A DNA stretch of 64,000 nt from IMG/VR virus record IMGVR_UViG_3300000117_000016, positions 15,779 through 79,778 of that record; one strand, written 5' to 3'. The position numbers and the translations under genes were made by a program. The notes under the pieces were generated by a model. It searched no databases and was not told the origin of the DNA. It worked only from the letters and a program-made list of their open reading frames with translations. Source of the stretch: a virus. Below are positions 1,766 to 36,103 of this stretch, piece by piece. Numbering within the stretch: position 1 is the first letter of the stretch; every line of letters begins with the position of its first letter.

Positions 1766-2204
1766 ATTTATATATTAATTTCTTCGTTGTGTCTATAAAG
1801 TCTTGCCAAGTGTTTTTATCAGAATCTTCATTTAAAATTAACTCATGAATATCCCCCCAAGATTGTTTAATTTGTTTAGAAAATGCAATTTGTTTTACTA
1901 TAGGAATATTGCTGATCTTTTCTTGAAATTTATTTGAATCTATCATATCAGATTTTGGCTCGTGATCAATCAATATTAATGGACATTGATGATATTTTGT
2001 AAGTTTAATAATTTTTTCTAAGTGTTTAGTCTTGTCGTTTGATATAATTAACTCTGGAGTAAAACTGCCCAAGTATATTTGATCTAAAGCAAATAGGCGC
2101 ACCCTTAGTGTTTTAAAAAACTCCTCAAACTCTCTGTTATCACTAGGTATCCATAGTATATTATTTATAGTATTTGTTTCTCTAGCCAGTAAACTAGAAA
2201 TCAT
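1758..2204 (-). CDS. Hypothetical protein (possible GT-B N-terminal-like domain)
   Basis: 148-aa ORF with a Rossmann-like pattern, inside a GT cluster. Confidence 0.5.
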   Translation of the reverse strand: MISSLLARETNTINNILWIPSDNREFEEFFKTLRVRLFALDQIYLGSFTPELIISNDKTKHLEKIIKLTKYHQCPLILIDHEPKSDMIDSNKFQEKISNIPIVKQIAFSKQIKQSWGDIHELILNEDSDKNTWQDFIDTTKKLIYKYE

Positions 2205-22648: not shown

Positions 22649-23465
22649 ATTTACCTTTATTGTTTAGTTTATATAGTCCGTTGCTATCAATTTCCAGATC
22701 TTTAATATTAAAATCATGAGTAAGTATTTTTTCTCTAGAATTATATCCTCTATATTTGTAGTCTCCGTGATATAAATGCTCTATGACACCTTTGCAATAG
22801 CCAACATCTACGCCAGAAGATTTGTCTAGATTTTGATAATAATTTAAAAAATCTTGTATCAAATTATTAGGCATTGCGAATATCTTGTAATTAACAATAT
22901 CACCTAACCAAGCATATAATTGCAAGCCGTCATTACTACCCATAATATGTTTATCATAAAAGCCATTTGGTAAAAGTGATCTGCGACATCCCCAGGATAG
23001 TCCAACAGCCAAGCTGCGTCCTATAGGTTCATTATGATGTATGTAAGAGTGTAGTAGCTTGGCATAAGAAAAGCAGTTGAGATTATGATTAAAATGATTG
23101 TCTAGTTCTACCACTCTTTCAAACGGTTGACCAAAACACTTCTCATCTAATAATTTATCTAATTCTGTAAGCCAATCATCATTATGAAATACTACATCTG
23201 TATCTACCCATACAATCTTATCTACATTGTCAGACAAAGTTTCTAAAGCTATATTGAAACATCTTTCCTTTTGCCATAAAAAATTTTCAGGCTTAGCTAC
23301 AATTTGTATAGCGTCATCTATAAAAAATTGAGATGCGTCTGTAGCTAATTCTACTGTAATTAGATCATGAGCAAAGTTTTTTCTAAATTTCTCATAGTTA
23401 GATTTTCTAACAGGATTATTATTATAATTAAAATATGAGCATATTGCTTTAATCATTGAAGTCAT
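22614..23465 (-). CDS. GT-A glycosyltransferase-like protein (paralog 1 of 3)
   Basis: LWQKERCFN, WVDTD (DxD), HLYHG; homologous to 34446..35291 and 35288..36103. Confidence 0.7.
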   Translation of the reverse strand: MTSMIKAICSYFNYNNNPVRKSNYEKFRKNFAHDLITVELATDASQFFIDDAIQIVAKPENFLWQKERCFNIALETLSDNVDKIVWVDTDVVFHNDDWLTELDKLLDEKCFGQPFERVVELDNHFNHNLNCFSYAKLLHSYIHHNEPIGRSLAVGLSWGCRRSLLPNGFYDKHIMGSNDGLQLYAWLGDIVNYKIFAMPNNLIQDFLNYYQNLDKSSGVDVGYCKGVIEHLYHGDYKYRGYNSREKILTHDFNIKDLEIDSNGLYKLNNKGKFDEIKEHFSKL

Positions 23466-23877
23466 GTTCCTGTATACGTTTTTCTATATCAAGATTAAAT
23501 GCAACCGACTTAACTAAGTTAATATTGAAGTCTCCATCTTCGTTAGAATCACACACATGCGGATTGTATGTAGTAGTCCTAATAAAATTTACGATCATTT
23601 TTAGTAGCCTTTCTTTTTGTTGATGTGCATAGGCTATCTCTTCAAAAAGGAAAGCTAAAAATTTGTGTATGTCTGCTGTTTTGCATGGTAGCATACCCAT
23701 ATTTATACCATAGCAGACCCAATGAAAATACAGTCTTTCTTTTTCTGTCACGCTATGTTCTTTACAATAAGGTTGATAAAATTCAGAAACCTCAGGGTAT
23801 TGTTCTGAGTATGTAACTTCATCAAAAAATTGATTACATTTATTCTTTTTATAAAAATCTTTTAGTGTTATTTCCAT
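23449..23877 (-). CDS. Hypothetical protein with FD..Y...YP...H...YG motif of the type seen in GT-associated repeats
   Basis: FDEVTYSEQYPEV...FHWVCYG. Confidence 0.5.
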   Translation of the reverse strand: MEITLKDFYKKNKCNQFFDEVTYSEQYPEVSEFYQPYCKEHSVTEKERLYFHWVCYGINMGMLPCKTADIHKFLAFLFEEIAYAHQQKERLLKMIVNFIRTTTYNPHVCDSNEDGDFNINLVKSVAFNLDIEKRIQEHDFND

Positions 23878-23880
23878 AAT

Positions 23881-24519
23881 TTAATTTTTGTAAGCAAAAA
23901 ACCTATGAAAAGGACAGTCCATAATACCAATAATTCTATCCATCAATAACTGTTCAGTAATATCTACCAAAACATTATTATCACATACATCGACAACGCC
24001 TTGATATACGTCTTGGTTTCCAGGTATGTCATCAATAACAACTACGGTGTCAGTATGAGCGAATTTTTTACAATCATGGACATCTTGGATTAAATCGTCT
24101 GTACTATGACCCCCATCAATATGAATTAAATCATATTTTTGTGTCGGAATATGTTTTTTTATAGTGGTATGACTATTGCCAGCAGTAAATATGCAGTCAT
24201 AATTCTGTGCTAAATAATCGCAACTACCCTTGGTATAAGGATGGCTAAATAAATCAAAACCTAGTACTTTTAATTTTGGATTAGCGTACAAACACAAGCC
24301 TACAGAATGTCCTCCATTAATTCCTACTTGAACTAAACTTTCAGAAACTCTAGACAAATTGTATAAGTTGTTTCTTAGTGAATACTTCTCTGTATCTAAA
24401 ACAAAATGGCTGGCATGATTGTATAGGCAATTTCCCTCAAAGTCAGGCAAATATGGTTTTACAGATTTATTTAAGTTTTTGACTATTTCAGAATCAAGAA
24501 ATTCGTTGTCATTAAGCAT
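23881..24519 (-). CDS. Class I SAM-dependent methyltransferase (Methyltransf_24-like)
   Basis: QVGINGGHS, GFD, GNS, YDLIHIDGGH, VVIDD. Confidence 0.85.
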   Translation of the reverse strand: MLNDNEFLDSEIVKNLNKSVKPYLPDFEGNCLYNHASHFVLDTEKYSLRNNLYNLSRVSESLVQVGINGGHSVGLCLYANPKLKVLGFDLFSHPYTKGSCDYLAQNYDCIFTAGNSHTTIKKHIPTQKYDLIHIDGGHSTDDLIQDVHDCKKFAHTDTVVVIDDIPGNQDVYQGVVDVCDNNVLVDITEQLLMDRIIGIMDCPFHRFFAYKN

Positions 24520-25267
24520 TAATTATTTCCTTTGCCATTTCTAATCTATATTGATTAATTTGATTGTGTGTGTAACCAAGCCTCTCTGCTCTTTTCCACG
24601 ATGTGCCGTGACCTAAATGATATACTTCCATATTAGGAAAACCTGTTTCTTCCGGATCGTAGTGCCTGCAAATCTTGGTATGATGTCTTGAAATATTAAA
24701 TACTTTCATTATATCAGAAAATGTGTTTTGATGATATACAGCTTCAAGGAAGTCTTGATCCCCAAAACATCTTCTATTTCTTTCTTCATAATGTTTTTTG
24801 CACCAATTAACAATATTATTTTTTTGTTTGATTAAGAATAAAATATATTTTTCCCAACCATGACTGTCTCCAGAGGCAAAGCATGAACAACATTCGTCTC
24901 TCCAATGTACTTTACTACTTATCTTGTGATCAAATCTAAAGCTTTTATTTATTACATCATAATCAGATATAAAAGAAGGCTCTTGTATTGTGTGGAAAGC
25001 AGCTATTTCTCTTTGTGTAGCCAACCAATATCTATGAACTGGATTTTTTTGTTTTAGTCCTGCACCTCCCCTAACTTCTATATGTACTTCTTGCACTAAG
25101 TCCATATATTGATTAAATAGTGATGATTTTTTGGCATCATCAATAGACAAAATGATAGGATCAAAACCTTGCTTTTTCCAGCTCTCTTCCCACACACCTA
25201 GCAAGCTCTCATGCATTTCTTGATCTGGATCATTTAGATTTTCATAATATGTATATATTTTTGTCAT
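24512..25267 (-). CDS. Putative GT-A glycosyltransferase
   Basis: WEESWKKQGF, ISDYDVIN (DxD), GDQDFL. Confidence 0.6.
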   Translation of the reverse strand: MTKIYTYYENLNDPDQEMHESLLGVWEESWKKQGFDPIILSIDDAKKSSLFNQYMDLVQEVHIEVRGGAGLKQKNPVHRYWLATQREIAAFHTIQEPSFISDYDVINKSFRFDHKISSKVHWRDECCSCFASGDSHGWEKYILFLIKQKNNIVNWCKKHYEERNRRCFGDQDFLEAVYHQNTFSDIMKVFNISRHHTKICRHYDPEETGFPNMEVYHLGHGTSWKRAERLGYTHNQINQYRLEMAKEIINA

Positions 25268-26457
25268 AGCGTATTGATTTCACAAGGGACATCAAAAATT
25301 TTACTAATCCAATAAACAAAACCAGACCCCCAATCATACACACTGTAAGATATATTGCTTTTGCTTTCAGAAAGAATCTTTACATCTAAAGCTGTGTGTA
25401 ATAATTTTTCATCTTCTATGTCTTGATTTTGAAAATCAGTAAAAGTAAGGGTAGAAGGAGCATAGGATGTATGAGTGCTCTTTTCGTGTATAATGTGTAT
25501 CTTTTTGCTCTTGTTGACCTTCTTAAAGTATGCTTTTAAATCATTGCAGTCCGACATAATGATTAGATTTTTACACTTACTATCTTTCAAATATTTTTTT
25601 GCCATTTTGTAGTATTCACTATAGTCATGATCAAAAGATTTGTAATTAGGATTTTCTTTAATATACTCTGGCAAATCAGATATTTGCTCGTCTAAGTGAG
25701 ATACGCTTTTTCTGTCGCCTAGCCTAAAGTGTAAAACATGATAGTCTTTTATATTAAGTGTTTGATAAAGATTTTCTACATCTTTATGAAAGTAAATATG
25801 AAATTTAAAATATCTTTTGCATTTATCTGTTAGGTCGTAGTTTTGTAAGAAACATCTAGCATTTCTGTCATAGTGCGGCACAATTAGAACATCATGATAA
25901 AATGAAGATATTGCTAGATCTTTTGAACTACTTATGGTCTCGTTAAGTATCTTTTTCATGTGCATAGACCAATTTTGGGAACCTCTATTGGATTCTGCTT
26001 CTACTTCTAAATCTATGGGCTCTGATTGCGTTTCAGGGGCTGTGGTTAAAATAAACTTACCGATAGGGTGCTGTTTAAAATCAAGGGTTACAGAGGTTTG
26101 TGTGTGATGACACAAGTTTTCAAATAGATGGACAGAACCTCTGAGAAAATCCCCTATACCACCACTAAATCTCTTGGTGTAGCAATTAGTTACACTTTTT
26201 AAATTTGATACATTTACAGGATATATACTAGACAGCTCAAAATGAGATAAGTCATAATCATCTCTATATAGTTGTAAAATAAAATTATACAAGATATCCA
26301 TATGGTGTCTTTGTGTAATCACCAATATGGATTTTACCAACCATTCATCTAACTGAGACTTATCTTTGCAATAGTCATACTGTAAAAAGTATTCAGCAAA
26401 AGATACTAGGTCTCCAGTATTAACAAAGTCATGAAGTATCTCTTTAGGTTCGGTCAT
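25264..26457 (-). CDS. Fucosyltransferase-like glycosyltransferase (GT11/GT23/O-FucT fold)
   Basis: GGIGDFLRG, LHFRLGD, IMSDC, LDVKILS, SGF. Confidence 0.7.
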   Translation of the reverse strand: MTEPKEILHDFVNTGDLVSFAEYFLQYDYCKDKSQLDEWLVKSILVITQRHHMDILYNFILQLYRDDYDLSHFELSSIYPVNVSNLKSVTNCYTKRFSGGIGDFLRGSVHLFENLCHHTQTSVTLDFKQHPIGKFILTTAPETQSEPIDLEVEAESNRGSQNWSMHMKKILNETISSSKDLAISSFYHDVLIVPHYDRNARCFLQNYDLTDKCKRYFKFHIYFHKDVENLYQTLNIKDYHVLHFRLGDRKSVSHLDEQISDLPEYIKENPNYKSFDHDYSEYYKMAKKYLKDSKCKNLIIMSDCNDLKAYFKKVNKSKKIHIIHEKSTHTSYAPSTLTFTDFQNQDIEDEKLLHTALDVKILSESKSNISYSVYDWGSGFVYWISKIFDVPCEINTL

Positions 26458-27418
26458 TTTGTTCCTGTATCCATTTATATGTCTTCTCTAATCCATTATA
26501 AAGTGTCATAGAGGGCTGCCAACCTAATTCTTTTTGTAAAAGTCTATTATCAGAATTTCTACCATTAACGCCTACAGGACCGTCTATATTTTTATACTTA
26601 ACGTTTTTACCAGAAAGTTTGATAATCATTTCTGCAAACTGATTGATGCTCACCATTTCTTCACTGCCAATGTTAACTGGCCCAGTAAAGTTTGATCGTG
26701 TTAATCTTAATGTACCTTCTATACATTCATCAATATATAGGAATGATCGTGTTTGATTACCTGTTCCCCAAATTTCAATAGTACCACCTTCTTCTGCCCT
26801 AATAACTTTTCTACACAATGCAGCAGGAGCTTTCTCTCTACCTCCATCCCAAGTGCCTTCTGGACCAAATATATTATGATACCTAGCTATGCTTACGTCT
26901 AATCCATGATTTCTTTGTAATGCTAAATAAAATCTTTCACTAAATAGTTTTTCCCATCCATATTCACTATCTGGTGCGGCTGGATATGCAGAATCTTCGC
27001 TACATTTTGGGTTGTCTGGATCTTCTTGATTATATGCTGGATACATGCAGGCACTACTGCTATAGAATAGTTTACCTATTTTTTTGTTGACAGCTATTGA
27101 GCCTATGTTAAGATTAATTTGTGCAGAATTATGCATGATACCCGCATCGTTCTCTCCAGTGAAAATATATCCTGCTCCACCCATATCTGCTGCTAGTTGA
27201 TAAACTTCGTCAAACACTTCTCCATTAGGTAAAGACATTACTCTTTCAGCATTTCTAAAATTACACAAATCTCCTAATGCAAAATCATCAGCTTCTGTTG
27301 TAGAGAAATCTGGTATCTTTAAATCTGCACCTCTTACCCAATATCCATCTGCCTTTAATCTTTTAACAAGGTGCGACCCTATGAATCCACCGGCTCCACA
27401 CACTAATGCTGTTTTCAT
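26444..27418 (-). CDS. GDP-mannose 3,5-epimerase-like NAD-dependent epimerase
   Basis: GAGGFIG, LAADMGGAGYI, SSACMYP, YGWEK, RYHNIFGP, GGREKAPAALCRK, GRNSDN. Confidence 0.9.
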   Translation of the reverse strand: MKTALVCGAGGFIGSHLVKRLKADGYWVRGADLKIPDFSTTEADDFALGDLCNFRNAERVMSLPNGEVFDEVYQLAADMGGAGYIFTGENDAGIMHNSAQINLNIGSIAVNKKIGKLFYSSSACMYPAYNQEDPDNPKCSEDSAYPAAPDSEYGWEKLFSERFYLALQRNHGLDVSIARYHNIFGPEGTWDGGREKAPAALCRKVIRAEEGGTIEIWGTGNQTRSFLYIDECIEGTLRLTRSNFTGPVNIGSEEMVSINQFAEMIIKLSGKNVKYKNIDGPVGVNGRNSDNRLLQKELGWQPSMTLYNGLEKTYKWIQEQNDRT

Positions 27419-27457
27419 TTTTATTTACTTTCTATAGCTTGTTATATTTTCTGTTAT

Positions 27458-27844
27458 TTAGTTAAAAATATTAATTATTTCAGGCCAGTTATTTTCAAAA
27501 CGAATAGCTTTATCATCAATATACGCCATAGCTCTAGGCTTTTCACTTGTTACATATTTTATATATTTGAGTATTCCGTATTTGTCAAGCCATTCCTCTA
27601 CTAATTCTTTGCCTGTTTTATTATTTACTAAGGGTCTGTCTGGTTTAGCTTTAGCTGTAAATATAACTATATCATAGTGTTTTGACAAAGTTTTTATAGC
27701 TTCAATTGATCCTTCTATCGGATCGTCATATATTGTCCCATCGTGGAAGCCTTTAGAATTTTTGTGTATTACATCATCAAAATCAATAGCTATTTGTTTT
27801 GAATGATCTTCTATTGCAAGCTTCTCGTATTCTTTTTTATTCAT
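27458..27844 (-). CDS. HAD-superfamily phosphatase
   Basis: IDFDDVI, FTA, KP, YIDDKA. Confidence 0.85.
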   Translation of the reverse strand: MNKKEYEKLAIEDHSKQIAIDFDDVIHKNSKGFHDGTIYDDPIEGSIEAIKTLSKHYDIVIFTAKAKPDRPLVNNKTGKELVEEWLDKYGILKYIKYVTSEKPRAMAYIDDKAIRFENNWPEIINIFN

Positions 27845-28496
27845 CTAAATTCCTTATGTCAAAATAAGAATCTTTACTTTTACTAAAACATAAATCTATA
27901 TTATTATAAATTTTGTAAGCGCATTCTTCAGGGGTTGGTAGTTTTGGATACATGTCTTGAAACTTTTTAACGGAAGGCACTTGTTTAAAATCTATTGTCT
28001 TTATATAGTCTTGCATTTTGGTTTTTATAACACCAGGAGCCAAAGATAAAAACTCAATATCTGTACACTCTTGGTTATAACACGAAAGCATTTGCTTAAA
28101 GGCAGCTTTACTAGAACAATACAAAGACCAACCAAAATATGTTTTTATGGCAGCACCTGACGATATGCCTATCACTTTTTTAGCTTTGTTATTTTGTATT
28201 AAGTAATCAATAATAATTTTGTTTGACCATACATTAACATCAAATATTTTTTTATATTCCTTAATGTCTATTTCATTAATTTTTTTAAGATCACCTAACA
28301 TACCAGCATTTAAAAAAACATATTCAAAATGATCGATATTTTTGCACACTGTTTTGACATAGGAACTGACTTGAGACAGGTCACTCAGGTCACAGTCTTT
28401 TCTATTGATAGTGTATACAGAATGGTTGTTTGAATATATTTTATATAGTGATTTTCCGAGTCCGGACGTAGTACCTGTGATAAGTATTTTTTTCAT
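27837..28496 (-). CDS. Short-chain dehydrogenase/reductase
   Basis: TGTTSGLG, LNAG, SSGAA, YCSSK, PGVIKT. Confidence 0.9.
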   Translation of the reverse strand: MKKILITGTTSGLGKSLYKIYSNNHSVYTINRKDCDLSDLSQVSSYVKTVCKNIDHFEYVFLNAGMLGDLKKINEIDIKEYKKIFDVNVWSNKIIIDYLIQNNKAKKVIGISSGAAIKTYFGWSLYCSSKAAFKQMLSCYNQECTDIEFLSLAPGVIKTKMQDYIKTIDFKQVPSVKKFQDMYPKLPTPEECAYKIYNNIDLCFSKSKDSYFDIRNLDE

Positions 28497-29437
28497 ACTT
28501 TAAAAACCTCAGGGTTAAAATTGTCTTTATCATGTCCTGTAATTTGTGAGCATATAGTATCAAATTTGTCTATAGATAAATTCAATTCATTGGCTGTTTT
28601 AGCATAGTTATCTGTTAGTCCGTAGGAAGAAGTGATAAGTTCATGTACTAAAGGTTGGATACTTAATATATTTTTATGTCTAAATATTAAGTCAGATAAT
28701 TTGGATATGTCAGACTTCTGTATTATATGCTCAAGTTTAAGGTTACCAGAACCTTTGCCCATTCCACGCACTGATGTGTCTGTGCTATCTATTTTGTTTT
28801 TTAATAATTCTTTATAGTTTGTAACAGCTAGTCCCATATGATCGTGTAAATGGAATCCCACCTTTTTGCCTCTAGATTTTAATACATCAAATGCTGGCGT
28901 AAATCTTGATAAATCTTTGGTTAAATCTAATGACCCATGAGTATCAGCAAAATATACATAATCAAATGGGAAGTCTATAACTTTGTGGGCTACTTCAATT
29001 GCTTCTTCTTGAGTATAGTTTGACGCATTAAAAACATTAAAGCTAATATTAATTTTACAAAACTCTTTTAGAGCTTTACCAAACGACAGGGCGTTACAGA
29101 TATCTTCTTTTCTAGAACACAATCTGATCATAGATATTTCTGATTGATTTACGCTAGGATATTTTTTAACATCATGGCTACAATAATGATAATCTATCAT
29201 TACGGAAATGTTATTCTTGTTTTGTTTTTGTGATACTTCACAGACCTTGTCGTAGTCTAGATTATAGAAAAAATTTTTACTTTTTGAAGTTTGTCCCCAA
29301 TATCCTAATTCAATTGTTTTTACTTGAGTTAAGCTGCACATCAAATTGTAGTATTCTCTAGCAAATTCTATAGGCCAATCGAAATCTACAGCATGACCAC
29401 CATCTCGTAATGTAACATCTATAATATCAATCACCAT
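28493..29437 (-). CDS. DRE-TIM (HMGL-like) pyruvate aldolase, 4-hydroxy-2-oxovalerate-aldolase-like
   Basis: DVTLRDGG, IELGY, ADTHG, GFHLHDHMGLA, GMGKGSGN. Confidence 0.88.
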   Translation of the reverse strand: MVIDIIDVTLRDGGHAVDFDWPIEFAREYYNLMCSLTQVKTIELGYWGQTSKSKNFFYNLDYDKVCEVSQKQNKNNISVMIDYHYCSHDVKKYPSVNQSEISMIRLCSRKEDICNALSFGKALKEFCKINISFNVFNASNYTQEEAIEVAHKVIDFPFDYVYFADTHGSLDLTKDLSRFTPAFDVLKSRGKKVGFHLHDHMGLAVTNYKELLKNKIDSTDTSVRGMGKGSGNLKLEHIIQKSDISKLSDLIFRHKNILSIQPLVHELITSSYGLTDNYAKTANELNLSIDKFDTICSQITGHDKDNFNPEVFKV

Positions 29438-30065
29438 ACCACCTTCTTGCTAGCTCTAAGTCTTCATGGGTATCTATTTCAATAGACTCTTCAAATGATA
29501 GTGGATAAAAGTATGGGTTAGATCCTGTCCTGTTTTTATGTTCTTTGAATGTTTGTTTGGTAAATATAAAAAAGGCACCATTGCCTAATATTATAGGTTC
29601 TAAGTTCTGCGTTTTTTGAATATGTTTCGGATCAAAATTAATTGGCTTATTTCTAAAATATGCAAATTCCTTATGCTCTGTGCATGCCTGAACAGTGTCA
29701 TAGCCCTCACTTAATTTTTTACTAGCTTCCTTCATTGTAGAAAGCTTTATAAATGGTGATGTTACATGTGGCGTCACAATAATTTCTTTATCATCTACAA
29801 CATGTTCATCTAAAAATCTATCAATCATTAATAATACAGGACTGACACCAAATGTAGCATCTGTTTCCAAAGCAATATGTTCTGGTAATCGCTGATAGGC
29901 ATTTCTGCATGATCTCAGTATTCTTGGGCTATCTGTATCAACAAACACCTCTTCATTTGTAAGTTTGTCTAATAGGTGTAACCACAAAGGCTTGCCTTTT
30001 AAAATTACAAAATTTTTATCTGTAACCCTCTCAGACTTGTCTTTTACAATTACAAAAAACTTCAT
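29427..30065 (-). CDS. Acylneuraminate/ulosonate cytidylyltransferase (NeuA/KdsB family)
   Basis: KSERVTDKN...GKPL, VDTDS, HVTSPF, TQNL, EIDTHEDL. Confidence 0.88.
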   Translation of the reverse strand: MKFFVIVKDKSERVTDKNFVILKGKPLWLHLLDKLTNEEVFVDTDSPRILRSCRNAYQRLPEHIALETDATFGVSPVLLMIDRFLDEHVVDDKEIIVTPHVTSPFIKLSTMKEASKKLSEGYDTVQACTEHKEFAYFRNKPINFDPKHIQKTQNLEPIILGNGAFFIFTKQTFKEHKNRTGSNPYFYPLSFEESIEIDTHEDLELARRWYGD

Positions 30066-30066
30066 A

Positions 30067-30516
30067 TTATTCAGCTATAAAAGTGCAAATGATTTTTCTA
30101 TCTCTAATAGGATCTAGTTCCACAGCAAATATACTTTTCCATTTGCCTAGTATTAATTCACCATTATCAACAGGTACTGTTTGAGATGAGTCAAAAAACA
30201 AATATCTAATATGAGAATGTCCATTAATTCTTTCGTCTGGCGGGGTGTCGTTCCTCAATGATATCATATCATGCAAATATTTAGTATTTTTTTGCACACC
30301 TTCCGGTTGTTTAGCTATTGGTGCATATGCGTCTAAGAAAAATCTAATATCAGCATGGTGCAGAATTTCGTTTTCCGTCATCCAAATAGCTAAGGTGGTA
30401 TGTGGAGAAAATACATGGATAATACCAGACTTATTCCAATCTTTTGCAAATTCTTTGATCTGTGGAGTAAGGTTGGTGAATAATTTATCGGTATTTAAAG
30501 TGATGTATTTCTTCAT
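30067..30516 (-). CDS. yjbQ: YjbQ (UPF0047) family protein
   Basis: HTT....ENE, Y.HD, NGHSHI, LGKWKSIFAVELD..R.R. Confidence 0.88.
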   Translation of the reverse strand: MKKYITLNTDKLFTNLTPQIKEFAKDWNKSGIIHVFSPHTTLAIWMTENEILHHADIRFFLDAYAPIAKQPEGVQKNTKYLHDMISLRNDTPPDERINGHSHIRYLFFDSSQTVPVDNGELILGKWKSIFAVELDPIRDRKIICTFIAE

Positions 30517-31193
30517 AGTATCTTACAATTTTGTAATATTTTTATTGCCTCTTCTGTTGGCTCTAAATCATTTGATAGTCTTGATGGCTGTTGATCCAAC
30601 AGCAAACAAAATGTAGCATCTATGAAGCCTTTGTCGTGTAGCCATCTTATAATATTGATTTCTGAGTTTTTGTCATGGCAAGATTTATTATTTTCTTCAT
30701 TTTGAAATATTTTATCTTGTACATAAAATGATTGTCTAACTTCATTATTTACAGAAAAACCAAACACATATAATTTGTCCTTAGGGAATTTTAGTATATG
30801 ATTACAAATTGCAGCAATACCTGTTCTGGGCTGTTTTTTAAAAAGATAAGGACACTTATTCTCCCGTAAAAAACTATTATAGGGACCAGCACGATCTATA
30901 CTATGTATAATTGTATATTCGTCAATATTAAAATTATCTGTAAAATTTTTAATATATTCTTCTTTATAGACGGTTTTGTAGTCTTTCATTAAAGACGATC
31001 CGCTTTTCTTTCTTTGTACGATATTGGTATATAAATGAGAACACAAAACTATAGAGTCTTTTATAGATCCATTATTTCCAGAAGGAATACCCATATTGCA
31101 TCTAATATTTCTATCAAATATATCAATTAGGCTATTGGCGTTTAAATTATTGTAAGTCTTGTTGCCTAATATTAAAATTGATTGATTGTTCAT
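30513..31193 (-). CDS. GT29 sialyltransferase-like protein
   Basis: L-like motif ILGN...IDIFDRNIRCN...G; S-like motif PRTG...LYVFGF; VS motif HxxxxE (HDKNSE) followed by LH. Confidence 0.72.
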   Translation of the reverse strand: MNNQSILILGNKTYNNLNANSLIDIFDRNIRCNMGIPSGNNGSIKDSIVLCSHLYTNIVQRKKSGSSLMKDYKTVYKEEYIKNFTDNFNIDEYTIIHSIDRAGPYNSFLRENKCPYLFKKQPRTGIAAICNHILKFPKDKLYVFGFSVNNEVRQSFYVQDKIFQNEENNKSCHDKNSEINIIRWLHDKGFIDATFCLLLDQQPSRLSNDLEPTEEAIKILQNCKIL

Positions 31194-31200
31194 AACAATA

Positions 31201-31791
31201 TTATTTTCTTATAAAACTATATATATTTCTACCATTAGAATAAAAGATATCATAATTATGGCTAGTGAAAAAATTGATTAATGCAACATCTCTTTGATTA
31301 TCTCTATTAGTGTTGTAGTCGTGTGTTTCCATGCATATTTGTTGAACACCCAAACAGTCTTTATAAATATCATATTCAGCACCCTCTATGTCTAGCTTAA
31401 TTAATGAAGGTTGATATTTTCTAATTAATCCTTTAAGGGAAATCGTTTTAACTGTATAGGTTTCTGAACCTACGCTTTTCATATCAGGGTTAATACTATC
31501 TGACACATGATTGGGGTTATTGTTTTTATATAAAACTAAATCTTTATCATCTAATGTATAAACAGCCTTATTGATGAAAGTAACATAGTTTAGTTTCTTG
31601 TCCTGATTATATCTCAAGGCTTTTATTGTAGGATCGACAGCAATAACTTTGACATCTCTATACAAATGTAAAAATTCACTAAAGCTATAGTCTTCACCTA
31701 CGCCTAAGTCTAAGATTGTATCATTAGTATTTATAGAGTCTAAATCTACATAATAACCCCCATAGTGATTGCCTGCTCTTAGTATATTCAT
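31201..31791 (-). CDS. FkbM-family methyltransferase
   Basis: LDLGVGED, VDP, LIKLDIEGAE, QICMETH. Confidence 0.88.
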   Translation of the reverse strand: MNILRAGNHYGGYYVDLDSINTNDTILDLGVGEDYSFSEFLHLYRDVKVIAVDPTIKALRYNQDKKLNYVTFINKAVYTLDDKDLVLYKNNNPNHVSDSINPDMKSVGSETYTVKTISLKGLIRKYQPSLIKLDIEGAEYDIYKDCLGVQQICMETHDYNTNRDNQRDVALINFFTSHNYDIFYSNGRNIYSFIRK

Positions 31792-32669
31792 TTAATAGCA
31801 CCTATCTTTGCAACAAATTCTTGCCATTCTCTCTTCCATTTGTCAAACGGTATAGTCTCTTGTAGCCATCCAATTGGATCATACATATCATAATTATTAT
31901 AAATTTTTTCTAATTTTTCTTTGATTAATTTAGTATTGGACCTATCTTTCCAAGAAATAATTTCACCTATTCTTGGGTCATAATCTCCATCAAACAATCC
32001 GGCTTCTGTAGACAAAACCGGAAGTCCACAAGCTATAGCATCCATTACTGCATAAGCATTGCCTTCGTGATAAGAAATACACATGTAAATATTATGATTT
32101 TGATAGCCGGTTTGTTTATTGTGTTGTCCACATTCTAAATTGTTGAATGTAAAATTTAAACATTCTGAACGGATATTATTTATAATTTTAGATCCTTTAG
32201 ACTCCGTTCTCCAATCCCCAACTACAGATCGGCCTTTAGTAACAGCCTTATCAGCTTTTGTCTCTACTCCATGCAGTATAACAGTGTCGTCAGTAACTCC
32301 ATGATGTTCTTTGGCTGCTCTTTCTGTAAATTTAGAAATACCCACAAACCAAGTGTTGGGTCTTTTTCCCATACCTTCTTGTTGTTGAACGAATACATCT
32401 CCGTCCCAAATAACATTCCTCTTTTTGTGTTCGGCAGCCATACCGTGGTGTACTGCGATTACCTTAAGCGGTTGAGGTATTTCGTTAATAAAACTATGAT
32501 CAGTTATTATTAATGTTTCATTTATATTTAGTGTAAACCAAGGAATGTTTGACTGTCTAATTACAGACCGTATACCAGGAAAAGCTTTACGCAGCTCATA
32601 ATCGAATCTAGCGACACCACCGAAAGATCCTGTTTCATAATTGGTGGGGGTATAATGTATAATATTCAT
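31788..32669 (-). CDS. Glycosyltransferase family 4
   Basis: GGVARF, HG, KG, SYHEGNAYAVMDAIACGLPV. Confidence 0.82.
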   Translation of the reverse strand: MNIIHYTPTNYETGSFGGVARFDYELRKAFPGIRSVIRQSNIPWFTLNINETLIITDHSFINEIPQPLKVIAVHHGMAAEHKKRNVIWDGDVFVQQQEGMGKRPNTWFVGISKFTERAAKEHHGVTDDTVILHGVETKADKAVTKGRSVVGDWRTESKGSKIINNIRSECLNFTFNNLECGQHNKQTGYQNHNIYMCISYHEGNAYAVMDAIACGLPVLSTEAGLFDGDYDPRIGEIISWKDRSNTKLIKEKLEKIYNNYDMYDPIGWLQETIPFDKWKREWQEFVAKIGAIK

Positions 32670-33556
32670 TTTAAAAATTTAGATTTGCATAATGTCCTAA
32701 TTTTTTCTTTTACGCTATCGTCCCACAAAAATTCCTTTACCATTTTATTATATGGCTTATAGTTTTTCCAATTTTGTGCATAGTGGTCTGCGTTGCTATG
32801 CTCTCCCCATTCTCCAATATACTGTGCATTCATAGTAAAGGTGGATATTTTAATAAAATTATTTAAGGCTAGAAACCCACTCATAACACTGTCTTGACTA
32901 GTTACTACCTTACTTGGGTCCATGTCGTATTGATCACAGTACTCCAATATTTGTTGATGCGGCCTACCCCTATAGTCATCTGGTAGCATAGCATAGTAAG
33001 CTTCCATAAAAGGAGCCACAACATCATATGCTCTTTTAAAAAACCCATATCCCCAAATATGCTCCATTTGCATAAATTTGTTATTATTTCTCTCTTGCTG
33101 TTTATCCCAATCGTCGTATCTTGTAAGATAGTCACAATACTTAAAAACATCTGTGTGTCTATGAATTTCACCAAAACAACTCACCATACTAATATCTTTA
33201 TCATCCTGGAATTTATCCATTAATAAATTCAACTGTTCTAGATAATAGTCATTTAATACTATGTCGTCTTCTATGAATATAGCAGAATCTGCTCTATCAA
33301 AAATAAATTCTCTTGCTCTTTTTTGATTAAAAGCAACGCCTAAGTTGCATTCACTAGCAAAGACTTTGGATTTAGGAAAATGCTTACTAAAAACATCTAC
33401 ACTGTTTTTTACTTTGGGCTTATCATCCGTTAGTATTCTTGCACCATCTTGAAACAAAAAAACCTCAGCGTCCTTGACTTGAGGCTTTAATGCTTGCAAT
33501 ACTTTATCTAAATAATCTGGACGATTATATGCATATACTATTATTGGTCTTGACAT
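32666..33556 (-). CDS. GT-A glycosyltransferase (GT2/GT13-like)
   Basis: YNRPDYL, FQDG, IFIEDD, WG. Confidence 0.8.
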   Translation of the reverse strand: MSRPIIVYAYNRPDYLDKVLQALKPQVKDAEVFLFQDGARILTDDKPKVKNSVDVFSKHFPKSKVFASECNLGVAFNQKRAREFIFDRADSAIFIEDDIVLNDYYLEQLNLLMDKFQDDKDISMVSCFGEIHRHTDVFKYCDYLTRYDDWDKQQERNNNKFMQMEHIWGYGFFKRAYDVVAPFMEAYYAMLPDDYRGRPHQQILEYCDQYDMDPSKVVTSQDSVMSGFLALNNFIKISTFTMNAQYIGEWGEHSNADHYAQNWKNYKPYNKMVKEFLWDDSVKEKIRTLCKSKFLK

Positions 33557-33581: not shown

Positions 33582-33830
33582 TTAACTCTTGGTTAGTTTA
33601 TTATAAACCAAAAGAGCAACCACGCCACCACCAATTCCCATAAAAATTCCCGCAGGCTCTAACGCACTATAAAACCCTAATAAATAAGATACTGCTCCAC
33701 CGCAATACGATCCAGCAACACCAAGGGCTACAGTTTGGAAAAACCCTAATTTTTCTTCGCCGGGGACTATACTCTTAGCAATAGACCCTACAAAAATACC
33801 GTATACACACCATATTAATAAACTAAACAT
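33582..33830 (-). CDS. GlsB/YeaQ/YmgE (transglycosylase-associated) membrane protein
   Basis: G...G.IAK.IVPG...LGVAGSYCGG; three TM segments. Confidence 0.85.
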   Translation of the reverse strand: MFSLLIWCVYGIFVGSIAKSIVPGEEKLGFFQTVALGVAGSYCGGAVSYLLGFYSALEPAGIFMGIGGGVVALLVYNKLTKS

Positions 33831-34209
33831 TACTTACCTCTATTAAAGAATGAACTTGTTCGTGACTCAAATCGCTTGCAGCGTCCAATATTTTCTCACA
33901 CAAAACACTTCCATGTTTTTTATATTCTTCCCTTGGCATATTTTGTCGTAATATTTTTTTAAGACGCATTTTGGTATACCATCCACGCCTTACACTTAAT
34001 GTTTTAATATGACTAGCATAAGCAGTACATTTTTGTTCAGTACTAGTCAGCATTTTGAGTTCTGTTTTATTACAATCTTGTATAACTCTGATTAAAGTAA
34101 GAAATACCCCAATCAGCATAATAACAGCTATGACACTACCAAAGTTAGCCTTCGGATCTATGTCAGAATCTATAGCAATTTTTTCTGCAATTGTTTCTAA
34201 TTCATTCAT
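33823..34209 (-). CDS. Hypothetical membrane-anchored protein
   Basis: One hydrophobic segment (VIAVIMLIGVFLTLI). Confidence 0.7.
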   Translation of the reverse strand: MNELETIAEKIAIDSDIDPKANFGSVIAVIMLIGVFLTLIRVIQDCNKTELKMLTSTEQKCTAYASHIKTLSVRRGWYTKMRLKKILRQNMPREEYKKHGSVLCEKILDAASDLSHEQVHSLIEVSNV

Positions 34210-34213
34210 GATA

Positions 34214-34453
34214 TTACTTCGGCCTTATGTTAATATAAAATTTACCATCCCTGGCTCCAGTTTTTAAAATACCATCCGATGATACTTGCACTTTAGCTTC
34301 AACTGGCGGACCTCCACCTATGACTGTAGGAGCATATCCAGCAGTATTAGTTCCAGCAATTGGATTATACCCTGCAGTATTATACACTATATTGTCGTCA
34401 ATATTATTAATAGTCGTTTTTAAAATTTTGTTGAATAGTTCTCTATTACTCAT
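34214..34453 (-). CDS. 79-aa protein with conserved leader and two TAGYxP motifs
   Basis: N-terminus matches 47597..49093 and 49519..51213. Confidence 0.75.
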   Translation of the reverse strand: MSNRELFNKILKTTINNIDDNIVYNTAGYNPIAGTNTAGYAPTVIGGGPPVEAKVQVSSDGILKTGARDGKFYINIRPK

Positions 34454-35291
34454 CGTCTTTTCTGTCTATAAAATATTGAGCTATATCTTGTTTGAATTTT
34501 GGTTTATTGGGCAGTAACTCTATCAGACCTTCCGTAATTTTTATGTCTGTATCTGGGTCATAGTTGTGGTTGTGTAGTATTTCGTTTTTTTCCCAATACT
34601 GTCTGTTGGCAGTATTTCCATGATACAAATGCTCTATACTACCTTTAATACACCCAATTTGGCCGTTGACGTTCTCATTATTTTTGAGGGCCCATAATAG
34701 GTATTTACGCCTCATTCTTGGGGGTAGGATTAATACTTGCTGATGATCCCATAACCCTAGCCAAGCTATTAATTGTAAAGCGTCATTATTCCCTAAAACA
34801 TCACAATCAAACAATCCGTCATCTATTATATTTCTCCTCATTGCCCAACTAAAACCTATGGCTGGCCAATCTTGCTTTTCTTCATTAAGATGATCTTGTG
34901 CAAAGGATATCTTATTGTGTGTAGAATTAGTAGACTTCTCGTATACTTGATCGAAACATTGTGCTACAGGATATTGATTTAAAACTTTATCTATGTCTTT
35001 TAATATGTTGTTATTATTAAAAATAATATCACAATCTACCCAAACAATGATGTCTATATTATTGGGTAGGGTATCTATCAAAACATTTAACAGTCTCTCT
35101 TTTTGCCAAACTATATTAGAGGTTGTTCCTTTTAGCTTTATACTGTCTTCTATAAAAAAATCCTGATCATCAATGGCGAGTTCTGCTGTATAAATTTTGT
35201 GTGGAAAACGTCTACGAAACTCTATATAGTTATTCTTAATCCTATTAGAGTTTGTAAAATTGAAGTACGAAGTTATAAATGCTGTACTCAC
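34446..35291 (-). CDS. GT-A glycosyltransferase-like protein (paralog 2 of 3)
   Basis: WQKERLLN, WVDCD, HLYHG. Confidence 0.7.
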   Translation of the reverse strand: MSTAFITSYFNFTNSNRIKNNYIEFRRRFPHKIYTAELAIDDQDFFIEDSIKLKGTTSNIVWQKERLLNVLIDTLPNNIDIIVWVDCDIIFNNNNILKDIDKVLNQYPVAQCFDQVYEKSTNSTHNKISFAQDHLNEEKQDWPAIGFSWAMRRNIIDDGLFDCDVLGNNDALQLIAWLGLWDHQQVLILPPRMRRKYLLWALKNNENVNGQIGCIKGSIEHLYHGNTANRQYWEKNEILHNHNYDPDTDIKITEGLIELLPNKPKFKQDIAQYFIDRKDDE

Positions 35292-36103
35292 AAAATATCT
35301 TTAATTTCGTTGTGCAATTCTGCCTTATCGCTAGCCCATTGCCATAAACCATTACTACCTAATTCAATATCCTCATTAATATCAAACAGATGTTTGTTTA
35401 ATATATGTGTATAAATTGGGCGTTGACTACTAGTGGTGGTAATTTTAATGTCATTTAAATGATTTAATTTATTTTGCACAACCATAAAGTCATTGATAGC
35501 TTTGGTTAATAGGGGTAGACTAATATCTTGATGGAAATCACGACAAAAACTGTTATTCCAAGCTCCTTGCCAAGTAACAATTTGATGTAATTCATTATTG
35601 CCTACAATAGAAAAATCATACAAGCCCTTAGGTAAAACATCTCTTCTTACAGCCCAAGCCAAATCATACCTACCTATATTAGATATGACAGGATTATTCT
35701 TTAGACTATATTCCTCACCTGCCTGTTTGATTTTTGCTAGATACCCCAACTGATCATTAACATGGCTAAAAAGTTGGCATATAGGATATTCGTCTAATGC
35801 AACTGTTGCCTTTTTGTACCATGACAAATCTTCAAAAATAATATTGGGATCTAACCAAGCTATTTGGTCAACAGAAGACTTTAGTGATTCTATACCTATG
35901 TTAATTAATCTTTGTGGTTGCCAAAGCATATTAGATTCGTCGGCAGATATCCTAATAGAATCATCAATCCAAAAATATTGATCGGCAAAAGCAACCTCTA
36001 CTACAGTCAGAGGAGCGTTAAAGTTATTTTTAAACTCTTGGAAATCCTGTCTAACTTTGTCAGAATTATTAGGATTAAAATAGTAGGTTATACATCGTAG
36101 CAT
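35288..36103 (-). CDS. GT-A glycosyltransferase-like protein (paralog 3 of 3, degenerate)
   Basis: LWQPQRLIN, WLDPN in place of DxD, no HLYHG. Confidence 0.62.
   Translation of the reverse strand: MLRCITYYFNPNNSDKVRQDFQEFKNNFNAPLTVVEVAFADQYFWIDDSIRISADESNMLWQPQRLINIGIESLKSSVDQIAWLDPNIIFEDLSWYKKATVALDEYPICQLFSHVNDQLGYLAKIKQAGEEYSLKNNPVISNIGRYDLAWAVRRDVLPKGLYDFSIVGNNELHQIVTWQGAWNNSFCRDFHQDISLPLLTKAINDFMVVQNKLNHLNDIKITTTSSQRPIYTHILNKHLFDINEDIELGSNGLWQWASDKAELHNEIKDIL

What the first reader, a model, noticed from the sequence alone, without database searches (positions are those of the whole stretch)
27458..31193. Phage-encoded pathway for a sialic-acid-like (3-deoxy-ulosonic acid) sugar: aldolase, SDR, HAD, CMP-synthetase, YjbQ and GT29
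Seen: six abutting or overlapping genes in the order GT29-like transferase (sialylmotif L/S/VS-like segments), YjbQ, NeuA/KdsB-family cytidylyltransferase, DRE-TIM pyruvate aldolase, SDR, HAD phosphatase. Established: GT29 enzymes use CMP-activated ulosonates and are mainly eukaryotic; NeuA/KdsB enzymes make those donors; canonical ulosonate synthesis uses PEP-dependent NeuB or KdsA, and neither is in this window. Inference: the metal-dependent aldolase condenses pyruvate with an aldose or aldehyde, perhaps prepared by the SDR, HAD or YjbQ. The 2-keto-3-deoxy acid is then CMP-activated and transferred by GT29. This would be a non-canonical, NeuB-independent sialylation-like system in a bacteriophage.
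Basis: partly seen in the sequence, partly recalled or inferred. Interest (0 to 1): 0.9.

Follow-up and report, generated by a model that had tools for sequence, protein, structure and literature searches.

The report
Phage aldolase-route sialic-like sugar cassette
An uncultured marine phage carries a six-gene block, shared with SAR11, SAR116 and other ocean bacteria, that probably builds a sialic-acid-like sugar with a pyruvate aldolase instead of the usual synthase, activates it with CMP and attaches it with a small sialyltransferase-type enzyme; I found no paper describing this route.

Summary
Six coupled minus-strand genes at 27458-31193 encode a GT29-like transferase, YjbQ, a CTP_transf_3 cytidylyltransferase, a DRE-TIM (HMGL-like) aldolase, an SDR and a small HAD-like protein.

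**Transferase.** It has no Pfam hit above threshold. A pLDDT 96.6 model matches GT29 sialyltransferases first (VIA Z 10.7) and GT42 next. PF00777 is the only family recurring among its relatives (23 of 108).

**Aldolase.** It keeps all five DmpG catalytic residues.

**Synteny.**
- YjbQ-cytidylyltransferase-aldolase-SDR keeps one order in viral contigs and in SAR11, SAR116, Bacteroidota and Gammaproteobacteria.
- In 8 of 9 other distinct viral loci, the gene before YjbQ is GT29-like or Maf/MptE-like.
- The HAD-like gene recurs after the SDR in two viral loci.
- Four bacterial loci have a true KdsC-type phosphatase before YjbQ.

**Reading.** This is most likely a NeuB/KdsA-independent route to a CMP-activated 2-keto-3-deoxy sugar acid. 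The sugar, the acceptor and the roles of YjbQ and the SDR are unknown, and no biochemistry exists.

- The cassette is not phage-specific.
- Bacterial GT29 is already published.
- The phosphatase probably acts after the aldolase.

This scan has already found the same cassette on other DNA (e1-5737463, a 163-kb phage, and others).

The parts
30513..31193 (-). Minimal soluble GT29-like (sialyltransferase-fold) glycosyltransferase, 226 aa
   Evidence: AF2 model from a 108-sequence alignment has pLDDT 96.6 and pTM 0.92. VIA-align: ST6GalNAc2 Z 10.7 (rmsd 3.1-3.4 over 163-167 aa), ST3Gal1 10.1, ST8Sia3 9.7, ST6Gal1 8.6, CstII 8.1. The top 35 Foldseek ranks (the listed rows) are all sialyltransferases. 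PF00777 matches 23 of 108 relatives, best E 7e-6. Atlas neighbours are viral GT29 clusters. Invariant residues are G125, H173, H186 and D192; H173-x4-E178 resembles sialylmotif VS.
30067..30516 (-). YjbQ/UPF0047 protein, 149 aa, role unknown (possibly tailoring of a phosphorylated 2-keto acid)
   Evidence: PF01894 82.9 bits. TIGR00149 66.6 bits, just under the 67.75 cut-off. It is 53-70% identical and always first in the cassette in viral and bacterial loci.
29427..30065 (-). CTP_transf_3 cytidylyltransferase (NeuA/PseF/KdsB superfamily), 212 aa
   Evidence: PF02348 42.3 bits. PseF is the best NCBIfam model at 45 bits, far below its cut-off. Best PDB hit is murine CMP-Neu5Ac synthetase 1qwj, E 1e-5. 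It lies directly upstream of the aldolase in every locus.
28493..29437 (-). DRE-TIM class II (metal-dependent) pyruvate aldolase, 314 aa
   Evidence: PF00682 60.4 bits. Best PDB hits are 3dxi (putative aldolase, E 6.5e-18) and DmpG 1nvm. DmpG R17, D18, H21, H200 and H202 align to R11, D12, H15, H196 and H198, all invariant in 20 homologues.
27837..28496 (-). Classical SDR oxidoreductase, 219 aa, probably NADP(H)-dependent
   Evidence: PF00106 77 bits. The translation shows TGTTSGLG, NAG, Ser and YxxxK, with Arg-Lys after strand 2. It is the fourth cassette gene in most loci.
27458..27844 (-). Small capless HAD-like phosphatase, 128 aa
   Evidence: Weak HAD-IIIA and GmhB hits, E 2e-3. HAD motifs I-IV are readable. 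59%-identical genes lie directly after the SDR in viral loci L093 and L096. Other HAD types take a neighbouring slot in bacteria: KdsC type in L021, L022, L023 and L025; HAD_2 in L011 and L012.
31201..33556 (-). Context upstream: FkbM methyltransferase (31201-31791), GT4-like (31788-32669) and GT2-like (32666-33556)
   Evidence: the FkbM match passes the cut-offs (Pfam 34.2 bits, TIGR01444 47.5 bits); the GT4 and GT2 Pfam matches are below them. All three are co-directional and overlap by 4 nt.
26444..27418 (-). Context downstream: NDP-sugar epimerase/reductase (GDP-fucose-synthase-like), 324 aa
   Evidence: PF01370 124.8 bits; the Fcl-like NCBIfam hit is below its cut-off. Related epimerases or Gmd lie near the cassette in many loci.

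Best explanation
The six genes form one biosynthetic module for a CMP-activated 2-keto-3-deoxy (ulosonic, sialic-like) sugar acid and its transfer. Every step below is inferred; none has been shown biochemically. (1) The metal-dependent DRE-TIM aldolase condenses pyruvate with an aldose, most likely one carrying a terminal phosphate, doing the job of PEP-dependent NeuB or KdsA. (2) YjbQ and the NADP(H)-type SDR tailor the intermediate; their exact reactions are unknown. (3) The HAD-type phosphatase removes the terminal phosphate, as KdsC does for Kdo-8-P. (4) The CTP_transf_3 enzyme makes the CMP-sugar. (5) The minimal, soluble GT29-like enzyme transfers it to an acceptor built by the neighbouring GT2, GT4 and FkbM genes. 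That acceptor could be on the infected host's surface glycan or on virion proteins. The module was exchanged between marine bacteria and their viruses.
For: Family assignments. The aldolase active site is intact and of the aldolase type (RDGxH plus HxH). All characterised CTP_transf_3 members that I know of act on 2-keto-3-deoxy sugar acids (my knowledge), and the aldolase product class fits that substrate class. The GT29-type fold and family are supported. Synteny: YjbQ-cytidylyltransferase-aldolase-SDR keeps one order in viral contigs and in SAR11, SAR116, Bacteroidota and Gammaproteobacteria. The cytidylyltransferase-aldolase pair is adjacent in every locus. In viruses the gene before YjbQ is GT29-like in the window, L003/L004, L010, L096, L097 and L098/L099, and MptE/Maf-like in L001/L002 and L094/L095. 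In Prochlorococcus L017 the GT29-like gene sits divergently next to the pair. Phosphatase: a true KdsC/YrbI-family enzyme (138.5 bits against a cut-off of 107) lies directly before YjbQ in L021, with homologues in L022, L023 and L025; SAR11 has HAD_2 there; the window's HAD-like gene recurs in L093 and L096. Independence from NeuB: in SAR11 L011 the cassette lies beside a complete legionaminic-type cluster that has its own NeuB and its own CTP_transf_3. Two of five cassette-bearing genomes show no NeuB hit. Analogous logic elsewhere: in L009 a CTP_transf_3 gene and a DHDPS/NanA-class pyruvate aldolase lie upstream of a GT29-like-PhyH fusion, and in L008 a true KdsB lies next to a GT29-like gene. 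YjbQ: overexpression in E. coli bypasses a pdxB block through a route inferred to form a phosphorylated 2-oxo-hydroxy acid (PMC3010111).
Against: There is no biochemical evidence for any step. The aldehyde substrate is unknown. The cytidylyltransferase scores far below every equivalog cut-off, so its substrate cannot be read from homology. Most bacterial cassettes have no GT29-like gene within 8 kb, so the transferase link is mainly viral. The window's HAD assignment rests on a weak hit and motif reading, and three different HAD types fill the role in different lineages. SDR and YjbQ have no assigned reaction. Class II pyruvate aldolases are reversible, so a pull from downstream steps must be assumed. 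The virus record is only 58% complete, so the absence of NeuB or KdsA is not proven, and the host surely has KdsA.
Confidence: 0.6

Rival explanations
1. Same module, different chemistry. The aldolase condenses pyruvate with a free 6-deoxy-hexose released from a GDP-sugar, following legionaminic-acid logic without amino groups. This would give a 3,9-dideoxy-nonulosonic-type acid. The HAD and YjbQ would then do something other than dephosphorylating a terminal phosphate.
For: An NDP-sugar epimerase or reductase, or GDP-mannose 4,6-dehydratase, lies beside the cassette in the window and in L001, L003, L010, L021 and L096-L099. The cytidylyltransferase resembles PseF and NeuA more than KdsB.
Against: Gmd and epimerase genes are common in any glycan locus. 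No NDP-sugar hydrolase (NeuC, LegG or PseG type) is in the cassette. A true KdsC-type phosphatase abuts the cassette in four loci. The window holds no Gmd or ManC relative.
Confidence: 0.15
2. The cassette does not make the sugar backbone. The aldolase and SDR make a small hydroxy or keto acid that decorates a host-made nonulosonic acid, and the cytidylyltransferase activates that host-made sugar.
For: In SAR11 L011 and L012 the cassette lies beside legionaminic-type genes. In SAR116 L027 it lies between two flagellin genes, a setting typical of decorated nonulosonic acids.
Against: The SAR11 Leg cluster has its own CTP_transf_3. The cassette holds no acyl ligase or acyltransferase. The cassette occurs in loci and genomes without NeuB. 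The cytidylyltransferase-aldolase pair stands alone in L018, L020 and L028.
Confidence: 0.12
3. The GT29-like enzyme is not the cognate transferase of the cassette product. It uses host CMP-Kdo or a host CMP-nonulosonate and lies next to the cassette only as part of a general glycan island.
For: In L008 a relative lies beside a true KdsB rather than beside this cassette. L005 shows a relative with no cassette gene on the DNA held, and most bacterial cassettes lack a GT29-like neighbour.
Against: In 8 of 9 other distinct viral cassette loci the gene directly before YjbQ is GT29-like or Maf/MptE-like, often with overlapping or abutting coding ends. Prochlorococcus L017 pairs it with the cytidylyltransferase-aldolase pair alone.
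Confidence: 0.1
4. The six genes are unrelated auxiliary genes that happen to be adjacent.
For: None beyond the lack of experiments.
Against: The order and orientation are conserved at 33-70% protein identity across at least four bacterial phyla and about ten distinct viral loci.
Confidence: 0.02

Closest known systems
Kdo and Kdn pathways (KdsA or Kdn-9-P synthase, KdsC-type phosphatase, KdsB or CMP-Kdn synthetase, Kdo/Kdn transferase)
   Same: The inferred logic is the same: a three-carbon keto acid unit plus an aldose phosphate gives an ulosonate phosphate. A HAD phosphatase then acts, followed by CMP activation by a CTP_transf_3 enzyme and transfer. A true KdsC-family phosphatase abuts the cassette in SAR116.
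   Different: The synthase is a DRE-TIM class II pyruvate aldolase, not a PEP-dependent KdsA or NeuB enzyme. YjbQ and an SDR are obligate members. The cytidylyltransferase fails every equivalog cut-off.
Nonulosonic acid systems (NeuB/LegI/PseI, NeuA/LegF/PseF, with GT29, GT42 or Maf transferases)
   Same: The cytidylyltransferase is nearest to PseF and NeuA. The transferase has the sialyltransferase fold, and Maf/MptE-like proteins replace it in some viral loci. One SAR116 locus has flagellin genes on both sides.
   Different: The cassette has no NeuB-family synthase and none of the dehydratase, aminotransferase, acetyltransferase or NeuC-type hydrolase genes. It coexists with a separate complete Leg cluster in SAR11.
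GT29 sialyltransferases, including the bacterial GT29-like sequences of Petit et al. 2018 (PMC5811610) and plant GT29-like candidate RG-II Kdo/Dha transferases
   Same: GT-A variant 2 fold. L-, S-, III- and VS-like motifs occur in the right order, with an invariant His-x4-Glu. Like the published bacterial GT29, it has no membrane anchor and no L/S disulfide cysteines.
   Different: It is only 226 aa, below the PF00777 gathering score, and belongs to a mostly viral clade. Some relatives are fused to a PhyH dioxygenase. The donor is unknown.
DmpG/BphI 4-hydroxy-2-oxovalerate aldolases
   Same: HMGL-like fold and identical catalytic residues.
   Different: 58 bits against the TIGR03217 cut-off of 286. 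No DmpF-type dehydrogenase partner was seen among the neighbouring genes. The context is glycan biosynthesis rather than aromatic degradation. The nearest structure is the uncharacterised 3dxi.
Aldolase-based CMP-sugar-acid cassettes noted earlier in this scan (HpcH-type: e1-2027027, e1-804946, e1-353795)
   Same: The proposed logic is the same: a pyruvate aldolase together with a KdsB-like cytidylyltransferase, SDRs and a phosphatase.
   Different: Those use HpcH/HpaI-family aldolases and different accessory genes. I did not test them here.

Membership tests
GT29 (Glyco_transf_29, PF00777) | Pfam PF00777 match above the gathering score | tested here: not met
   15.7 bits against a cut-off of 23, E 0.01, covering only the S-to-VS region. 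Among 108 relatives, 23 match at E<=0.1, best 7e-6; the next family has 4 matches.
GT29 (Glyco_transf_29, PF00777) | GT-A variant 2 sialyltransferase fold | tested here: met
   Model pLDDT 96.6. The VIA top ten are all GT29, Z 8.2-10.7; GT42 scores 7.2-8.1; the next fold (thiamin pyrophosphokinase) scores 7.1. The top 35 Foldseek ranks are sialyltransferases with probability 0.75-1.00, but TM is only 0.40-0.48.
GT29 (Glyco_transf_29, PF00777) | Sialylmotifs L, S, III and VS, with the catalytic His of VS | tested here: inconclusive
   By inspection: GN..D.F..R.N (L-like), PRxG...GFS (S-like), Y157 (III-like) and H173-x4-E178 (VS-like), with H173 invariant. I could not make a residue-level structural superposition on a solved GT29.
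GT29 (Glyco_transf_29, PF00777) | Type II membrane topology and the L-S disulfide of eukaryotic members | tested here: not met
   No N-terminal extension or hydrophobic anchor is present, and no conserved Cys occupies those motif positions. The same holds for the published bacterial GT29 (PMC5811610).
GT29 (Glyco_transf_29, PF00777) | Uses a CMP-activated ulosonic acid donor | not testable with these tools
   Only context is available: relatives lie next to CTP_transf_3 genes of three kinds (this cassette, KdsB in L008, PseF-like in L009).
CTP_transf_3 cytidylyltransferases (NeuA/KdsB/PseF) | Pfam PF02348 above the cut-off, with the N-terminal CTP-binding motif | tested here: met
   42.3 bits against 22.6. 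A K-x-x-S-x-R-x-x-x-K-N stretch is present at residues 8-18. It is not a member of any equivalog: PseF scores 45 against 205.7 and KdsB 18 against 193.
DRE-TIM class II pyruvate aldolase (DmpG/BphI type) | HMGL-like fold with the Arg-Asp metal/enolate pair, the catalytic His and the HxH metal ligands | tested here: met
   PF00682 60.4 bits against 29. R11, D12, H15, H196 and H198 align to DmpG R17, D18, H21, H200 and H202 and are invariant.
DRE-TIM class II pyruvate aldolase (DmpG/BphI type) | Orthology to 4-hydroxy-2-oxovalerate aldolase (TIGR03217) | tested here: not met
   58.1 bits against a cut-off of 286.
YjbQ/UPF0047 | PF01894 or TIGR00149 match | tested here: met
   PF01894 82.9 bits against 27. 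TIGR00149 66.6 against 67.75, marginally below.
HAD phosphatase superfamily | Profile match above the cut-off and the four HAD motifs | tested here: inconclusive
   TIGR01662 18 bits against 44.6; no Pfam hit. The motifs DxDxV, Thr, Lys and DD are readable. Both structure-prediction jobs went to the transferase, so no model was made.
Canonical ulosonate synthases (NeuB PF03102, KdsA PF00793) | Presence in the virus record | tested here: not met
   No match in the 79.8-kb record. The record is about 58% complete, so absence from the whole virus is not proven.

The most novel reading that the evidence does not exclude
A widespread, so far undescribed marine route to a CMP-activated sialic-like sugar. 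A DRE-TIM pyruvate aldolase replaces the PEP-dependent NeuB or KdsA synthase. YjbQ/UPF0047 gets its first physiological role. Phages carry the whole route together with a minimal GT29-type transferase, to decorate either the infected cell's surface or their own virions.
Probability: 0.55. Interest if true: 0.85.

Novelty: new variant of a known kind. Interest (0 to 1): 0.7.

Why it matters
- It would add a third, non-homologous way to make ulosonic (sialic-like) acids, in some of the most abundant ocean bacteria (SAR11, SAR116, Prochlorococcus) and their viruses.
- It would give YjbQ/UPF0047 a testable pathway context; that widespread family has no known native function.
- It would show that tailed phages carry minimal soluble GT29-type transferases, which bears on the proposed bacterial origin of eukaryotic sialyltransferases.
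- Surface sugar acids govern phage adsorption and grazing. A phage-borne route could therefore change host susceptibility or virion properties.
- The enzymes are small and soluble, so they could be useful for chemoenzymatic synthesis of unusual CMP-sugars.

Tried and rejected
- **Isolated phages:** megablast of window 1-25000 against 50,697 phage records found nothing. Blastn of 27000-32000 matched only the neighbouring epimerase gene in cyanophages. The helicase is at most 27% identical to any isolated phage, so no host could be assigned.
- **tRNAs:** none found in the window.
- **PDB by sequence:** a profile of the transferase family found no sialyltransferase.
- **First structure model:** the 17-sequence model (pLDDT 75) gave only middling scores, Z 6.2-7.3. 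I replaced it with the 108-sequence model.
- **Literature:** searches for the gene combination (aldolase, cytidylyltransferase, YjbQ, DRE-TIM, ulosonic acid) found no description. ElaABC of Acinetobacter was considered and set aside because it contains no aldolase. Phosphonate pathways (HMGL-like synthase plus a cytidylyltransferase) were set aside because the aldolase carries the aldolase-type RDGxH signature. Absence of PEP mutase was not tested.
- **Fusions:** no fused long forms of the aldolase were found; this is weak evidence.
- **Other pathway genes in the window:** no Gmd, ManC, KdsC, GmhA, NeuB or MptE relatives.
- **Tool closure:** The contexts of the roughly 485 aldolase clusters and 262 transferase clusters could not be surveyed.

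Full report
**1. What is in the sequence**

The window is AT-rich (about 28-41% G+C in 2-kb windows, mostly 32-36%). Almost all ORFs of 90 aa or more lie on the minus strand. It is part of a 79.8-kb IMG/VR virus record that CheckV rates 58% complete. PHROG matches identify a DnaB-type helicase, a primase and a UvsX-like recombinase; a weak, below-cut-off Pfam match suggests a ribonucleotide reductase. No isolated phage is close: megablast found nothing, and the helicase is at most 27% identical to any.

Six minus-strand ORFs lie at 27458-31193, overlapping or abutting. In order of transcription they are:

| Coordinates | Length | Assignment | Evidence |
|---|---|---|---|
| 30513-31193 | 226 aa | No Pfam family above threshold | |
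| 30067-30516 | 149 aa | YjbQ/UPF0047 | PF01894, 82.9 bits |
| 29427-30065 | 212 aa | CTP_transf_3 cytidylyltransferase | 42.3 bits; nearest model PseF; nearest structure murine CMP-Neu5Ac synthetase |
| 28493-29437 | 314 aa | HMGL-like DRE-TIM protein | 60.4 bits; nearest models are 4-hydroxy-2-oxovalerate aldolases |
| 27837-28496 | 219 aa | Classical SDR | 77 bits |
| 27458-27844 | 128 aa | Weak HAD-IIIA hit only | E 2e-3 |

The block continues upstream into an FkbM methyltransferase, a GT4-like gene and a GT2-like gene. Downstream it continues into an NDP-sugar epimerase/reductase.

**2. The transferase**

It does.

- A profile search of 1.84 billion representatives found 262 clusters at E<=1e-3.
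- With a 108-sequence alignment, AlphaFold gave pLDDT 96.6 and pTM 0.92.
- The top 35 Foldseek ranks (the listed rows) against the PDB are all sialyltransferases, at E about 2e-4 to 4e-2 and probability 0.75-1.00. TM is only 0.40-0.48.
- VIA-align ranks GT29 enzymes first: ST6GalNAc2 Z 10.7 (rmsd 3.1-3.4 A over 163-167 residues), ST3Gal1 10.1, ST8Sia3 9.7 and ST6Gal1 8.6. GT42 follows (CstII 8.1, CstI 7.9), and only then an unrelated fold at 7.1.
- At the sequence level the protein gets a sub-threshold PF00777 match over the S-to-VS region. PF00777 is the only family that recurs among the 108 relatives: 23 members, best E 7e-6.
- The ESM Atlas places it among clusters of 215-260-aa proteins that are more than 90% viral and mostly carry PF00777.
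- Four residues are invariant in the family: G125 (in a PRxG...GFS stretch), H173, H186 and D192. H173-x4-E178 has the form of sialylmotif VS.

I therefore call it GT29-like: it has the fold and motifs, but it sits below the curated family threshold. It is a minimal soluble form without a membrane anchor or the L/S cysteines. Bacterial GT29-like sequences with these same traits were already reported (PMC5811610).

**3. The aldolase and the other enzymes**

- **Aldolase.** Its alignment to DmpG (1nvm) puts R11, D12, H15, H196 and H198 on DmpG R17, D18, H21, H200 and H202. All five are invariant among 20 homologues that are 48-72% identical. From my own knowledge of the superfamily, the RDGxH signature marks the aldolase branch, whereas the Claisen-type and lyase branches carry RDGxQ. 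The protein is not an orthologue of the catabolic enzymes (58 bits against a cut-off of 286).
- **SDR.** It keeps the TGxxxGxG, NAG, Ser and YxxxK motifs. It has Arg-Lys after the second strand, which suggests NADP(H) use.
- **HAD-like protein.** The 128-aa protein shows the four HAD motifs by eye.
- **YjbQ.** It has no known native function. One published hint is that overexpressing it in E. coli bypasses a pdxB block, through a route inferred to form 2-oxo-3-hydroxy-4-phosphobutanoate, a phosphorylated 2-keto acid (PMC3010111).

**4. Co-conservation**

- YjbQ-cytidylyltransferase-aldolase-SDR occurs in the same order and orientation in viral contigs L001-L004 and L093-L099. It also occurs in single-cell or metagenome genomes of SAR11 (L011-L013), SAR116 (L021, L022, L025, L027), Bacteroidota (L014, L015, L024) and Gammaproteobacteria (L026). 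Protein identities to the window range from 33% to 70%.
- The cytidylyltransferase-aldolase pair is adjacent in every locus. It stands alone in L018, L020 and L028.
- Among the nine other distinct viral loci, the gene directly before YjbQ is GT29-like in L003/L004, L010, L096, L097 and L098/L099. The last two groups are divergent members, at E 8e-9 to 1e-7 against the family HMM. It is MptE/Maf-like in L001/L002 and L094/L095, and unidentified in L093. Maf proteins are the flagellin nonulosonic-acid transferases, and they also appeared in the fold search.
- L096, a 123-kb viral contig, has all six genes in the window's order, with one extra 239-aa gene. L093 and L096 carry a 59%-identical HAD-like gene right after the SDR.
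- In Prochlorococcus L017 a GT29-like gene lies divergently next to the pair.
- In an aldolase tree, the window groups with L003 and L010 (support 99/99), next to the SAR11/Bacteroidota group. The viral sequences need at least two origins.

**5. Context that bears on the mechanism**

- A true KdsC/YrbI-family phosphatase (138.5 bits against a cut-off of 107, and also similar to Kdn-9-P phosphatase) lies directly before YjbQ in SAR116 L021. Homologues take the same place in L022, L023 and L025. SAR11 has a HAD_2 phosphatase there. A phosphatase is thus a recurrent member filled by different HAD types. This is expected if the aldol product carries a terminal phosphate, as Kdo-8-P and Kdn-9-P do.
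- In SAR11 L011 the cassette lies beside a complete legionaminic-type cluster. That cluster has a nucleotidyltransferase, a DegT aminotransferase, a PglD-like acetyltransferase, NeuB, a NeuC-type epimerase, a dehydratase and its own CTP_transf_3. The cassette therefore serves a different sugar.
- In Cyclobacteriaceae L015 the cassette sits in an ABC-transporter O-antigen or capsule locus with sulfotransferases, with no NeuB among the neighbouring ORFs scanned.
- Two of five cassette-bearing genomes gave no NeuB hit, although those genomes are incomplete.
- In SAR116 L027 the cassette lies between two flagellin genes.
- Relatives of the transferase lie next to other CTP_transf_3 genes. L008 has a true KdsB. 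In L009 a PseF-like enzyme and a DHDPS/NanA-class pyruvate aldolase lie upstream, and there the transferase is fused to a PhyH dioxygenase. A second, unrelated class of pyruvate aldolase in the same company supports the idea that aldolases feed these transferases.

**6. Most likely mechanism (all steps inferred)**

1. Pyruvate plus an aldose, probably one with a terminal phosphate, is condensed by the metal-dependent aldolase into a 2-keto-3-deoxy acid.
2. YjbQ and the SDR tailor it.
3. The HAD phosphatase removes the phosphate.
4. The cytidylyltransferase makes the CMP-sugar.
5. The GT29-like enzyme transfers it to a glycan built with the adjacent GT2, GT4 and FkbM genes.

I put 0.9 on the genes forming one module and about 0.6 on this chemistry. 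The target cannot be decided here. It could be the host surface, for example to block superinfection, or virion proteins.

The rivals are listed separately. They are a route from free 6-deoxy-hexoses, decoration of a host-made nonulosonic acid, and a non-cognate transferase.

**7. Novelty**

Eight literature searches found no description of a DRE-TIM aldolase, or of YjbQ, in ulosonic-acid synthesis. No NCBIfam equivalog covers any cassette member. The overall logic matches the Kdo, Kdn and sialic acid pathways, so I class this as a new variant of a known kind.

This scan has already met the same cassette on other DNA: e1-5737463 (a 163-kb marine phage, with a follow-up reaching a similar conclusion), e1-5927860, e1-5804180 and e1-5833233. 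Those notes are not independent evidence.

- the high-confidence GT29 model;
- the KdsC-type phosphatase adjacency;
- the recurrence of the window's own HAD-like gene;
- the divergent GT29-like genes before YjbQ in further viral loci;
- the KdsB and DHDPS-aldolase contexts of the transferase family.

**8. Limits**

Many bacterial loci come from single-cell or metagenome assemblies. Two cassette-bearing contigs are filed under archaeal bins (L010, L016) and may be mis-binned.

Noticed in passing
L009:7908-9284, L006:1797-3098, L007:6984-8285: Relatives of the GT29-like protein are fused to a C-terminal PhyH-type Fe/2-oxoglutarate dioxygenase domain (433-458 aa). Two of the three lie in contigs labelled as giant-virus MAGs. 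In L009 the fusion lies near a DHDPS/NanA-class aldolase and a PseF-like cytidylyltransferase.
   Followed up: partly
L008:7177-12400: A viral contig carries GT47 exostosin-like, GT29-like, a true KdsB, radical SAM/SPASM, methyltransferase and class III aminotransferase genes in a row. This may be a route to a modified Kdo.
   Followed up: partly
L027:6882-11905 and upstream: In one SAR116 single-cell genome the cassette lies between two flagellin genes (761 and 663 aa). This suggests flagellin glycosylation with the cassette product.
   Followed up: partly
L011:4991-6163, L012:1759-2937, L014 (392-aa ORF): A 390-aa protein of the LA_1612 putative O-antigen family (69 bits, below the cut-off) recurs just upstream of the cassette in SAR11 and Flammeovirgaceae. 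In L012 a GmhA-like sedoheptulose-7-P isomerase precedes it.
   Followed up: partly
L010 and L016: Two cassette-bearing contigs are deposited under Promethearchaeota and Pacearchaeota MAGs. L010 matches the viral contig L003 almost gene for gene, so these are probably mis-binned viral or bacterial DNA.
   Followed up: no
window 2201-4896 and 52030-54134: Three more glycosyltransferases (phrog_2170) and a dehydrogenase (phrog_9582, E 1e-108) lie far from the island. The virus invests heavily in glycan genes.
   Followed up: no
window 21689-26457 and 33823-36103: Most genes flanking the island have no Pfam family at E<=0.01 (319, 283, 142, 251, 397, 128, 281 and 271 aa). One is a Methyltransf_24 enzyme at 23881-24519.
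   Followed up: no
L096:4077-5000 region and L094/L095: Some viral versions carry an extra gene between YjbQ and the cytidylyltransferase: 239 aa in L096 and 121 aa in L094/L095. Their families were not determined.
   Followed up: no
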